This document shows, piece after piece, positions 9,001 through 12,000 of a DNA stretch of 18,807 nucleotides; the stretch's first letter is position 1; each line of letters opens with the position of its first letter. The DNA is taken from IMG/VR virus record IMGVR_UViG_2778261136_000002, one strand, 5' to 3'. The position numbers are program-made. This stretch comes from a virus. Taxonomy: Duplodnaviria > Heunggongvirae > Uroviricota > Caudoviricetes.

Positions 9001-12000
9001 CCACTGCGTTGGCCTGACTGATTTCTGAATGAAAGGAACTGATTTATGGGATTGTTTACGACCCGCCAGTTACTCGGTTATACCGAACAAAAAGTGAAAT
9101 TTCGTGCGCTGTTTCTGGAACTGTTTTTCCGCCGTACGGTGAATTTCCACACCGAAGAGGTGATGCTGGACAAAATTACCGGAAAAACGCCGGTGGCAGC
9201 CTATGTCTCCCCGGTTGTTGAAGGAAAAGTGCTGCGTCATCGTGGTGGTGAAACCCGCGTGTTACGTCCGGGCTACGTCAAGCCGAAACACGAATTTAAT
9301 TACCAGCAGGCGGTGGAGCGCCTTCCCGGTGAAGATCCTGCGCAGCTGAACGACCCGGCCTACCGTCGTCTGCGTATCATCACCGATAACCTCAAACAGG
9401 AAGAGCATGCCATTGTCCAGGTGGAAGAAATGCAGGCGGTGAATGCCGTGCTGTATGGCAAATACACCATGGAAGGGGAGCAGTTTGATACTGTCGAGGT
9501 GGATTTCGGGCGCTCTGAAGGAAATAACATTGAGCAGGCTGATGGTAAAAAATGGTCTGAGCAGGACCGTGATACGTTTGATCCGACGCATGATATTGAC
9601 CTCTACTGCGATCAGGCCAGCGGTCTTGTGAATATCGCCATTATGGACGGTACGGTCTGGCGTCTGCTGAATGGTTTTAAGCTGTTCCGCGAAAAACAGG
9701 ATACCCGTCGCGGCTCAAATTCACAACTCGAAACGGCAGTGAAAGACCTGGGAGCGGTGGTGTCTTTCAAAGGGTATTACGGCGATCTGGCTATTGTGGT
9801 GGCGAAAACGTCTTATGTGGCAGAGGACGGTACCGAAAAACGTTATCTGCCAGAGGGCACGCTGGTCCTGGGAAATACGTCAGCAGAGGGGATCCGTTGT
9901 TACGGTGCCATTCAGGATGCACAGGCGTTGTCCGAAGGTGTGGTGGCTTCTTCCCGTTACCCGAAACACTGGCTGACCGTGGGCGATCCGGCCCGTGAAT
10001 TCACCATGACGCAGTCTGCACCGCTGATGGTGCTGCCGGATCCGGATGAGTTTGTGGTGGTACAGGTGAAATAATCCGGGAGCGGGGGCGAAATGCCCCC
10101 GTGTCTTTTTTCACAGGGGGCTGAGATGGCAACAAAAGAAGAAAATCTGAATCGTCTTCGTCAACTGGCTGGTCTGCTGGGGCGCGAGGCGGATATGTCG
10201 GGGAGTGCTGCGGATATTGCTCAGCGTGTGTCTGAGTGGGAAGAGGAGCTTGCAGCTTCCCGGGAGGGCATTATGCACTCTGATGAGAGCGGGTCTGATC
10301 AAAATGACACAGACGATGGTGAGCCGTTGAACAACACGGATGCTCCGGATGATGTTAAAGCCGTCCGTGTGCGCAAGTGCCTGCATGTGATGGGGTATTG
10401 CCCGGAGACAGGCCGTCCTGTTGAGCTTACGTTCCGGGGGATGCGTGTTCTGGTGCCATCATCACTGGCAATGGCCATGATACAGCACGGAACGGCTGAG
10501 TATGCGTGATTTTAAGAATGCCTTTGATGCCGCCCTTGCGGGGGTGGACAGCACGATTGTTGAAGTGATGGGGATCCGTGCGCAGTTCACCTCCGGAGCA
10601 CAACGTGGCGGTGAAGTTCAGGGGGTTTTTGACGATCCGGAGTCGCTGGGTTTTGCCGGTGGCGGGGTCCGTATTGAAGGAAGCAGCCCGTCATTATTTG
10701 TGCGGACGGATACGGTGCGTGCCGTGCGGCGTGGTGACACGCTGACCATTAACGGCGGGATGTTCTGGGTGGATCGTGTTTCTCCGGATGACGGGGGTAG
10801 CTGTTATCTCTGGCTCAACCGTGGGCAACCACCCGCTGTTAACCGGCGACGATAAACGCAGGGTGAAATTATGGCGATAAAAGGGCTTGATCAGGCGATT
10901 GACAATCTGAGCCGGGTTCGTAAAAACGCCATTCCGGCGGCTTCAGCAATGACGATTAACCGCGTGGCCACAACGGCGATTAATCAGTCTTCATCACAGG
11001 TTGCCCGTGAGACAAAGGTACGCCGGAAACTGGTTAAGGAACGGTCCAGACTGAAACGGGCCACGGTCAGAAATCCGAATGCAAAAATTATCGTTAACCG
11101 CGGTGATCTCCCTGTGATTAAGCTGGGGATCAGAATGCTGGGGCGTCGTCCGGACAGCATACTCAAAGCCGGTCAGCATCGTTATCAGCGGGCATTTATC
11201 CAGCGATTAAATAATGGGCGCTGGCATGTTATGCAACGTCTTCCCCAGGCCAGATATGAGGAGGGCAATGATGACAAGGGCAGGAAAAAGCGTAATCGCC
11301 TTCCCATTCAGGTGGTGAAAATCCCGATGGCGGCCCCACTGAAACAGGCGTTTGATGAAAACGTTGACCGTATCCGTCGAGAACGCCTGCCCAAAGAACT
11401 GGCATATGCGCTGAAACAACAACTGAGGATTGCGATAAAACGATGAAACATACTGATATTCGTGCCGCAGTGCTGGATGCACTCGAGCAGCATGAACACG
11501 GGGCGACGCTGTTTGATGGTCGCCCCGTTGTTTTTGACGAAGAGGATTTTCCCGCGATCGCGGTTTATCTGACGGATGCAGAGTATACCGGTGAAGAGCT
11601 GGATGCAGATACCTGGCGGGCCACACTGCATATTGAGGTGTTTTTACCGGCACAGGTACCGGATTCAGAGCTTGATCTGTGGATGGAAAGCCGGATTTAC
11701 CCGGCGATAACTGCGATCCCGGCACTGGCGGGCATGATTACCACGATGGTTACGCAGGGCTATGAGTATCGTCGTGATGACGATATGGCATTGTGGAGTT
11801 CTGCAGATCTGACTTATTCCATTACATACGAGATGTGAGGACGATATGGCAACACCAAATCCCCTGGAGCCGGTAAAAGGTGCCGGTACCACACTGTGGG
11901 TTTACACCGGCAAGGGTGATGCTTATGCAAACCCGTTGTCAGACGATGAGTGGACGCGCCTGGCAAAAATAAAAGATCTGACCCCCGGCGAGATGACGGC

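What the first reader, a model, noticed from the sequence alone, without database searches (positions are those of the whole stretch)
10079..10126. Strong intrinsic terminator inside the late operon between E and FI
A perfect 7-bp GC stem with a T6 tail sits immediately after the major capsid gene, and the FI start is placed just beyond it. Late transcription would have to be Q-antiterminated to reach the tail genes. The hairpin could also set relative head/tail gene expression or stabilise the E message 3' end. A weaker hairpin follows D (8997-9016, CAGGCCA/TGGCCTG).
Basis: seen in the sequence. Interest (0 to 1): 0.28.

Follow-up and report, generated by a model that had tools for sequence, protein, structure and literature searches.

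The report
Terminator-type hairpin after the capsid gene
A stable RNA hairpin followed by a run of Ts sits just after the major capsid gene of this lambda/phage-21-type E. coli prophage; it is real and clearly kept by selection, but it is an ordinary, already recognised kind of element found at the same spot in essentially all lambda-like phages.

Summary
Sites this strong are expected 0.07 times per shuffled window; two are seen, both on the sense strand and both intergenic.

Among 53 distinct sequences downstream of E homologues, 52 carry a compact hairpin (6-9% in controls). These fall into roughly 15 unrelated hairpin sequences. Substitutions inside each family keep the pairing. The T-rich tail is enriched overall (53% T) but ranges from none to strong; the window's is among the strongest.

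A second hairpin precedes E in nearly all relatives. GenBank records of N15 and HK225 already annotate both orthologous hairpins as putative rho-independent terminators.

Most likely this is an intra-operon intrinsic terminator. It would stop unmodified polymerase, be read through by Q-modified polymerase, and then remain in the late transcript as a 3' exonuclease barrier for the E message. Termination activity and strength are untested. This is a new sequence member of a known kind, of low interest.

The parts
9046..10074 (+). Major capsid protein gene E (phage 21 gene 7 type), stop TAA 10072-10074
   Evidence: Pfam Phage_cap_E, E = 7.6e-66; 89% DNA identity to phage 21 gene 7
10082..10089 (+). 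5' arm of the hairpin, GCGGGGGC (G-C core 10083-10089)
10090..10094 (+). Loop GAAAU; it contains the spurious in-frame ATG at 10093
10095..10102 (+). 3' arm of the hairpin, GCCCCCGU
   Evidence: all stem substitutions seen in 11 distinct variants keep the pairing
10103..10111 (+). Tail GUC + U6 (T run 10106-10111), the terminator-type U tract
   Evidence: 7 of the first 9 nt after the last G-C pair are T
10116..10120 (+). Shine-Dalgarno GGGGG of FI; in this variant 10112-10121 can pair with the hairpin's 3' arm (10095-10103) in an alternative helix of -16.8 kcal/mol
   Evidence: phage 21 record annotates the RBS at the equivalent place; alternative fold; variable among relatives
10126..10509 (+). 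FI gene (DNA packaging protein), 127 aa
   Evidence: Pfam Packaging_FI, E = 2.1e-16, match from residue 3; phage 21 ORF1 starts at the equivalent ATG
8996..9017 (+). Companion hairpin between D and E: TCAGGCCA-CUGCGU-UGGCCUGA, with a poor U tail
   Evidence: hairpin present upstream of E in 45 of 51 distinct relatives
8641..8988 (+). Head decoration gene D/shp
   Evidence: Pfam HDPD, E = 5.4e-23

Best explanation
This is a rho-independent-terminator-type RNA hairpin, transcribed as part of the single late transcript of a lambdoid (phage 21 head type) E. coli prophage. It lies in the only sizeable non-coding gap after the major capsid gene.

Shown here: the hairpin and U-rich tail exist, lie on the sense strand, are far beyond chance, and are maintained by selection at this position across lambda-like head modules.

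Inferred mechanism:
- RNA polymerase that has not been modified by the phage Q antiterminator forms the hairpin in its exit channel at the U tract and releases the transcript. Stray or read-in transcription therefore does not run on into the head-completion and tail genes.
- Q-loaded polymerase narrows the exit channel so that terminator hairpins cannot form there. It passes the site during lytic growth.
- The hairpin then folds in the free RNA behind the polymerase. After endonuclease cuts in the U-rich spacer it would block 3'->5' exonucleases.
- Together with the companion hairpin upstream of E, this would prolong the life of the D/E capsid message relative to its neighbours.
For: Anatomy and significance.

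Position conserved while sequence is not:
- 52 of 53 distinct post-E sequences have a compact hairpin <= -8 kcal/mol, against 9% of shuffles and 6% of coding windows.
- 44 of 53 are <= -12 kcal/mol, against about 1% in controls.
- There are 30 distinct hairpin sequences in roughly 15 unrelated families.

Pairing kept through substitutions:
- In the phage 21 type alignment 100% of cells pair, with one G-C to A-U double change and four wobble changes.
- In the lambda/N15 type 96% of cells pair, with U-A to C-G in three sequences. 0 of 500 shuffles reach the covariation score.

Other support:
- Tails are T-enriched across families: 53% T against about 22% background, P ~ 6e-12.
- The element works in one direction only; the minus-strand reading has no T tail.
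- There is no + strand promoter-like site in 18.8 kb.
- Orthologous hairpins are annotated as putative rho-independent terminators in N15 and HK225.
- Q proteins of phage 21 and lambda form a nozzle on the RNA exit channel that precludes terminator hairpins (bioRxiv 10.1101/651190 and PMC9388147).
- Terminators directly after the capsid gene are described for T7-like phages (PMC10134795). One at the end of the procapsid module is described for P22-like phage L (PMC8022706).
Against: - No transcript 3'-end, half-life or termination-efficiency data exist for this site, and I found none for the lambda equivalent.
- The U6 run starts four nucleotides after the last G-C pair, which usually weakens a terminator.
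- Three of about 15 hairpin families have no T-rich tail at all, and only five have a T run of 5 or more. Termination cannot be the universal function of the positional homologues.
- Within each family most stem pairs never vary, so covariation support is modest. For the phage 21 type, 86 of 500 shuffles do as well.
- Q and the late promoter lie outside the window, so the antiterminator type here is unknown.
- From memory, not checked here: relative late-gene expression in lambda has been attributed mainly to translation initiation.
Confidence: 0.6

Rival explanations
1. The element is purely an mRNA decay barrier, an intercistronic stabiliser hairpin. The selected feature is the stem-loop alone. 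It protects the upstream capsid message from PNPase and RNase II, and the T-rich tail is incidental (AT-rich spacer and RNase E target).
For: The hairpin is near-universal (52 of 53) whereas the T tract is absent in Trabulsiella L014, Buttiauxella L016 and Methylorubrum L066 and weak in N15, phi80 and lambda. Hairpins bracket E on both sides in nearly all relatives. Late transcription is antiterminated anyway, so a terminator would be silent during lytic growth.
Against: Tails are significantly T-enriched across independent families. In the window and four other families they form T runs of 5-6, which a decay barrier does not need. The lambda/N15 D-E hairpins are textbook A-tract/stem/T7 terminators. 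No stability data are available.
Confidence: 0.2
2. It is a leaky terminator that acts even on Q-modified polymerase. It lowers transcription of FI, FII and the tail genes relative to the head genes and so sets head/tail stoichiometry.
For: The site lies at the boundary between the genes needed in about 400 copies (D, E) and those needed in few. This possibility is raised for intra-operon terminators in PMC8022706. T7-like phages use a terminator after the capsid gene in this way (PMC10134795).
Against: Q-loaded polymerase is described as termination-deficient. In lambda and N15 the strongest terminator-like site lies between D and E, which are needed in equal amounts. Terminator quality varies from none to strong among phages with the same virion stoichiometry.
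Confidence: 0.1
3. It is a translational switch. The 3' arm alternates between the terminator helix and a helix that sequesters the FI Shine-Dalgarno, so that folding of the hairpin, or its melting by ribosomes finishing E, gates FI translation.
For: In the window the alternative helix (10095-10103 with 10112-10121) is -16.8 kcal/mol, the same as the terminator hairpin. L124 and L011 keep arm:SD complementarity with changed sequences; in L011 GCTCC pairs with GGAGC.
Against: The commonest close variant (GGAGGC, 24 loci) drops to -8.2 kcal/mol for the arm:SD duplex; its alternative fold (-10.6 kcal/mol, z = -0.4) is no better than shuffles. Other variants drop to -2 to -5 kcal/mol. The pairing is absent from all other hairpin families. 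A C-rich arm and a G-rich SD are complementary by composition. The full 81-nt fold prefers the terminator helix.
Confidence: 0.07
4. It is a chance palindrome or a DNA-level protein-binding site with no RNA function.
For: None specific. Palindromes can be protein-binding sites.
Against: Expected about 1e-4 per 51-nt gap. The position is conserved with unrelated sequences and with pair-preserving substitutions, which fits a structure rather than a sequence motif.
Confidence: 0.03

Closest known systems
Stem-loops annotated after the major head gene (and after the decoration gene) in phage N15 (AF064539, 7053-7073 and 5980-6004) and HK225 (JQ086371), labelled putative rho-independent terminators
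   Same: Orthologous position (between the E homologue and the FI homologue, and between D and E), same strand, GC-rich 7-pair stem with a 4-5 nt loop, inside the Q-dependent late operon.
   Different: Unrelated sequence (GTGGCCC-NNNN-GGGCCAC against GCGGGGGC-GAAAT-GCCCCCGT). The N15/HK225 post-E tail is weak (CTTTCTGG) while the window's is T6. Their post-D hairpin is the strong one, whereas in the window the post-D tail is the weak one.
Lambda E-FI intergenic hairpin (NC_001416 about 7166-7183, ATGGCCC-TTCG-GGGCCAT)
   Same: Same gap, same orientation, 7-pair stem, -12.3 kcal/mol, z = -3.3.
   Different: Starts 2 nt after the stop codon (7 nt in the window). UUCG tetraloop. The tail TGTTTCTCTG has no T run. 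It is not annotated in the lambda reference record.
Terminator immediately downstream of the major capsid gene in T7-like phages (T7 and LUZ100) and the intra-late-operon terminator at the end of the procapsid module of P22-like phage L
   Same: A terminator-type hairpin placed right after the most highly expressed structural gene, inside a longer late transcription unit (PMC10134795; PMC8022706).
   Different: T7-like phages use their own RNA polymerase and a local promoter, not Q antitermination. Their capsid genes are from different families. For phage L the authors state that the roles are not known.
Intercistronic mRNA-stabilising hairpins of bacterial operons (puf operon decay terminator, malE-malF REP, papBA). 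Recalled from general knowledge, not checked here.
   Same: A stable stem-loop after the cistron whose product is needed in greatest amount, within a polycistronic transcript.
   Different: Those elements were defined by measured differential mRNA half-lives. No such measurement exists here, and this hairpin also carries a terminator-type U tract.

Membership tests
Rho-independent (intrinsic) transcription terminator | GC-rich stem of about 5-14 pairs with a 3-8 nt loop | tested here: met
   8 pairs (7 G-C plus G·U), 5-nt loop, -16.8 kcal/mol, z = -4.4
Rho-independent (intrinsic) transcription terminator | U-rich tract of about 7-9 nt directly 3' of the stem | tested here: inconclusive
   7 of the first 9 nt after the last G-C pair are U, with a U6 run, but the run begins 4 nt after that pair (UGUC spacer). 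An alternative extension of the stem would place U5 directly adjacent.
Rho-independent (intrinsic) transcription terminator | Lies on the transcribed strand, outside coding sequence, in the direction of the operon | tested here: met
   It lies between the E stop (10074) and the FI start (10126) on the + strand. The reverse strand has no T tail.
Rho-independent (intrinsic) transcription terminator | RNA 3' ends or transcript release at the U tract | not testable with these tools
   No transcript data are available, and no paper with 3'-end mapping of this or the lambda site was found in ten literature searches.
Post-capsid-gene hairpin of lambda-like head modules (as annotated in N15 and HK225) | Hairpin within about 25 nt after the stop codon of a Phage_cap_E family gene and before the FI homologue | tested here: met
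   The gap from stop to stem is 7 nt. The same arrangement is found in 52 of 53 distinct relatives.
Post-capsid-gene hairpin of lambda-like head modules (as annotated in N15 and HK225) | Companion hairpin between the decoration gene and the capsid gene | tested here: met
   8996-9017 in the window; present in 45 of 51 distinct relatives at <= -8 kcal/mol
Intercistronic mRNA decay-barrier hairpin | Upstream segment of the transcript outlives the downstream segment, dependent on the stem | not testable with these tools
   This needs rifampicin-chase RNA measurements.
Intercistronic mRNA decay-barrier hairpin | Stable stem-loop conserved irrespective of a terminator tail | tested here: inconclusive
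   The hairpin is near-universal and 3 of about 15 families lack a T-rich tail, but tails are T-enriched overall.
Attenuator or riboswitch-like switch with mutually exclusive helices | Competing helix conserved, and positioned so that it can pre-empt the terminator | tested here: not met
   The competing helix uses sequence downstream of the U tract, so it is made after the termination decision. Its strength ranges from -15 to -2 kcal/mol among close relatives, and it is absent in other families.
Any curated RNA family (Rfam 15) | Match at or above the gathering score | tested here: not met
   There were no hits at gathering threshold in the whole window. The best sub-threshold hit is the ylbH leader at 16.7 bits against 50, E = 0.93.

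The most novel reading that the evidence does not exclude
In the phage 21 lineage the hairpin may be bifunctional. Its 3' arm can leave the terminator helix and form an equally stable helix (-16.8 kcal/mol) with the FI Shine-Dalgarno. The folding state of the post-capsid hairpin, influenced by ribosomes terminating on E only 7 nt upstream, would then set how much FI packaging protein is made per capsid message.
Probability: 0.08. Interest if true: 0.4.

Novelty: new member of a known kind. Interest (0 to 1): 0.15.

Why it matters
On its own it matters little. Intra-operon terminator-type hairpins after phage capsid genes are familiar to annotators, and this exact locus is found in 1553 of 5426 complete E. 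coli genomes.

The modest value is comparative. Every lambda-like head module examined brackets its capsid gene with two hairpins of unrelated sequence and variable terminator quality. The lambda-type and phage 21-type modules have swapped which of the two carries the strong U tract.

That makes the family a convenient natural series for testing an open question: do such elements serve as insulators against unmodified polymerase, as message stabilisers, or as both? Published annotators state that the roles are not known (PMC8022706).

There is also a practical use. Correct annotation of the hairpin prevents mis-calling the FI start at the ATG inside the loop (10093).

Tried and rejected
- Rfam at gathering threshold over the whole window, and at permissive E-values over 8900-10250. 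Nothing meaningful was found.
- Ten full-text literature searches for experimental mapping of a lambda or phage 21 E-FI terminator, lambda late-mRNA stability, or Term-seq of lambda. No direct data were found. The lambda ribosome-profiling paper (PMC3718152) is not held.
- A d'Aubenton-Carafa-style score with free hairpin choice. I rejected it as a measure because the unconstrained search extended helices across the U tract, and replaced it with compact-stem scoring.
- A first fuzzy-motif method for locating E stop codons picked wrong frames. It was replaced by tblastn-anchored stops.
- Alternative helix with the FI Shine-Dalgarno as a conserved switch. It is isoenergetic in the window but not conserved.
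- Ribosome gating of the terminator (a ribosome at the E stop covering the 5' arm). The stop-to-stem gap ranges from 2 to 22 nt across families and is 7 nt here, which is marginal. It is not a general feature.
- Identity of the window with the Stx2a prophage of E. coli RM10466. It is 100% identical over 301 nt, but the window is not colinear with that genome elsewhere, so provenance is not asserted.
- Whether the repeated units after gene I are the known prophage anti-sRNAs AgvB/AsxR. Those map to the moron site downstream of the late promoter, not here.

Full report
**What is there**

The window is the late region of a lambdoid E. coli prophage, running from the lysis genes to the tail genes. 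Its head genes are of the phage 21 type.
- The E-FI region is 89% identical to phage 21 and 95% identical to the PhiR12 phages.
- Pfam confirms lysozyme, Rz, Nu1, D (8641-8988), E (9046-10074), FI (10126-10509) and FII.
- The 51-nt gap between E and FI reads TCCGGGA-GCGGGGGC-GAAAT-GCCCCCGT-GTC-TTTTTT-CACAGGGGGCTGAG-ATG.
- The hairpin has seven consecutive G-C pairs (10083-10089/10095-10101) closed by a G·U pair, and a 5-nt loop.
- Its free energy is -16.8 kcal/mol, and none of 200 dinucleotide shuffles is as stable.
- The T6 run (10106-10111) begins after a GTC spacer. In this variant GGA (10079-81) can also pair with UCU (10104-06), which would put U5 directly against the stem.
- FI starts at ATG 10126, five nucleotides after GGGGG, as annotated for phage 21 ORF1. 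The mechanically longest ORF starts at an ATG inside the hairpin loop (10093) and should be disregarded.

**More than chance**

The simple scan ranks this site second in the window. Under a stricter rule (hairpin <= -14 kcal/mol plus at least 6 T in the next 10 nt) there are two sites in 18.8 kb. Both are on the sense strand and both are intergenic: this one, and 18769-18792. Dinucleotide shuffles give 0.07 per window on both strands. Read on the minus strand the hairpin has no T tail, so the element is directional.

**Comparative evidence**

I collected 138 loci encoding an E homologue, from annotated phages, species-representative genomes and IMG/VR. I anchored the E stop codon in each by tblastn. 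This gave 53 distinct downstream sequences.

| Measure | Post-E sequences | Composition shuffles | 59-nt windows inside E |
|---|---|---|---|
| Compact hairpin <= -8 kcal/mol | 52 of 53 | 9% | 6% |
| Compact hairpin <= -12 kcal/mol | 44 of 53 | 1.4% | 1.1% |

There are 30 distinct hairpin sequences in roughly 15 families that share no sequence. Examples:
- window / phage 21: GCGGGGGC-GAAAT-GCCCCCGT
- lambda: ATGGCCC-TTCG-GGGCCAT
- N15 / phi80 / HK225: GTGGCCC-N4-GGGCCAC
- Gifsy-1: AAAGGCCTG-ATT-CAGGCCTTT
- Providencia: CGGCGGG-GAAA-CCCGCCG
- Trabulsiella: an 11-pair stem
- an alphaproteobacterial locus with only 29% protein identity: GGCGGCGCCC-TCAC-GGGCGCCGTC

Within families the substitutions keep the pairing.
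- Phage 21 type (11 distinct variants): 100% of cells pair, with four wobble changes and one G-C to A-U double change in a Shigella/E. coli variant.
- Lambda/N15 type: 96% of cells pair, with U-A to C-G in three sequences, and no shuffle reaches the covariation score.

Most stem pairs never vary within a family. The strong argument is therefore positional conservation with sequence turnover, not covariation statistics.

The same holds for the D-E gap. 45 of 51 distinct relatives have a hairpin there. In lambda and N15 it is a textbook A-tract/stem/T7 terminator.

**The tail**

Counting from the last G-C pair, the first nine nucleotides are 53% T across the 15 family representatives, against about 22% background (P about 6e-12). 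A terminator-like tail is thus the rule. Its quality, however, ranges from none (Trabulsiella, Buttiauxella, Methylorubrum) through weak (N15, lambda) to strong (window, Providencia, L011, L038, Aeromonadaceae). The window's version is among the best. Lambda-type and phage 21-type modules have also swapped which of the two hairpins flanking E carries the strong T run.

**What it most likely does**

The anatomy, strand and intergenic placement support a real intrinsic-terminator-type element inside a transcription unit that can only be completed by read-through.
- The window has no sense-strand promoter-like site: 2 hits, both on the minus strand, against 11.6 +/- 3.8 expected.
- Q proteins of phage 21 and lambda ride with RNA polymerase and form a nozzle on the RNA exit channel that prevents terminator hairpins from forming (10.1101/651190 and PMC9388147).

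The inferred sequence of events is as follows. Unmodified polymerase terminates here. Q-loaded polymerase passes. The hairpin then folds behind the polymerase and can act as a 3' exonuclease barrier for the capsid message. These steps are inferred, not shown.

The near-universal stem combined with a variable tail suggests that the stem itself carries at least part of the selected function. I give the composite model 0.6. The rivals are:
- pure decay barrier, 0.2
- leaky terminator that sets the head/tail ratio, 0.1
- FI translational switch, 0.07
- chance palindrome or DNA-level binding site, 0.03

**A lineage-specific oddity**

In the window the 3' arm plus GUG (10095-10103) can instead pair with CAC-A-GGGGGC (10112-10121), which contains the FI Shine-Dalgarno. 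This alternative helix is -16.8 kcal/mol, equal to the terminator helix.
- Roughly half of the close variants keep this pairing. Two divergent ones (L124, L011) keep it with changed sequences.
- In the commonest variant (GGAGGC) the arm:SD duplex falls to -8.2 kcal/mol, and its alternative fold (-10.6 kcal/mol, z = -0.4) is no better than shuffles. Others fall to -2 to -5 kcal/mol. The pairing is absent outside this lineage.
- Because it uses sequence made after the U tract, it cannot act as an antiterminator.

I treat it as probably compositional, since a C-rich arm meets a G-rich ribosome-binding site.

**Comparison with what is known**

- The GenBank records of N15 and HK225 annotate the orthologous post-D and post-E stem-loops as putative rho-independent terminators.
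- Neither phage 21 record annotates the hairpin, although both annotate ribosome-binding sites there. The lambda reference record does not annotate it either.
- The phage L genome paper notes a putative terminator at the end of the procapsid module inside the late operon. [quoted passage not shown]
- T7-like phages have a strong terminator immediately after the capsid gene (PMC10134795).
- No Rfam family matches.

The element is therefore a new sequence member of a known kind.

**Prevalence**

A 301-nt segment spanning the site occurs in 1553 of 5426 complete E. coli genomes, often in several prophages per genome. It is 100% identical to a Stx2a prophage of strain RM10466, but the window is not colinear with that genome elsewhere.

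**Verdict**

The element is ordinary and interest is low.

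Noticed in passing
window 18387-18807 (and L152 1219-2128): Where tail gene J should follow gene I there is a non-coding stretch of tandem, related units of about 220 bp. Each begins with AAAAAAATCCCGCAG...CTGCGGGA, which on the minus strand reads as a hairpin plus T7 terminator. The window shows two units, and the related RM10466 prophage has four in a 910-bp unannotated gap. Homologous stretches occur in 94 phage records, mostly Stx-converting, and are unannotated in most of the listed records ('hypothetical protein' in a few). There is no Rfam match, and they are not the AgvB/AsxR anti-sRNAs, which map elsewhere. They may be minus-strand small RNA genes.
   Followed up: partly
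window 18769-18792: A second strong sense-strand terminator-type hairpin, ACAGGCACCC-TCCG-GGGTGCCTGT followed by TGTTTTT (about -20.8 kcal/mol). In the related RM10466 prophage it lies about 50 nt upstream of the J start. It is another intra-late-operon terminator that read-through must pass.
   Followed up: partly
window 1766-1798: A long sense-strand hairpin, AAAACCCCG...GGGGTTTT with a GTGTTTCC tail, lies between the lysozyme gene (1142-1675) and Rz (1974-2441). It is a third terminator-like site in the late transcript.
   Followed up: no
whole window: Sigma-70-type promoter-like sites are strongly depleted: 2 found, both on the minus strand, against 11.6 +/- 3.8 in shuffles. This fits a long operon driven from a single upstream promoter.
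   Followed up: no
loci L017-L032, L053-L062 (genome-contig hits): About 25 short, low-coverage contigs in assemblies of unrelated organisms (Neobacillus, Kitasatospora, Pseudomonas, Prevotella, Akkermansia and others) carry lambda E at the lambda-level identity to the query (59-64%), and the roughly 15 that reach the E-FI gap have it identical to lambda's. This is almost certainly lambda DNA contamination of those assemblies, not prophages.
   Followed up: partly
window 8996-9017 versus 10082-10111; L003/L005 equivalents: The two hairpins flanking the capsid gene have reciprocal terminator quality in the two head types. In lambda and N15 the post-D hairpin has a T7 run and the post-E hairpin a weak tail. 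In the phage 21 type it is the other way round.
   Followed up: partly
window 10093-10125: An in-frame ATG inside the hairpin loop extends the FI reading frame by 11 codons. Automatic ORF callers could mis-place the FI start there.
   Followed up: yes
window 142-630: A 162-aa ORF lies immediately after the end of the holin gene and has no Pfam match. In the related RM10466 prophage the corresponding region is annotated as a truncated DUF1327 pseudogene, and the two prophages differ by about 300 bp there.
   Followed up: no
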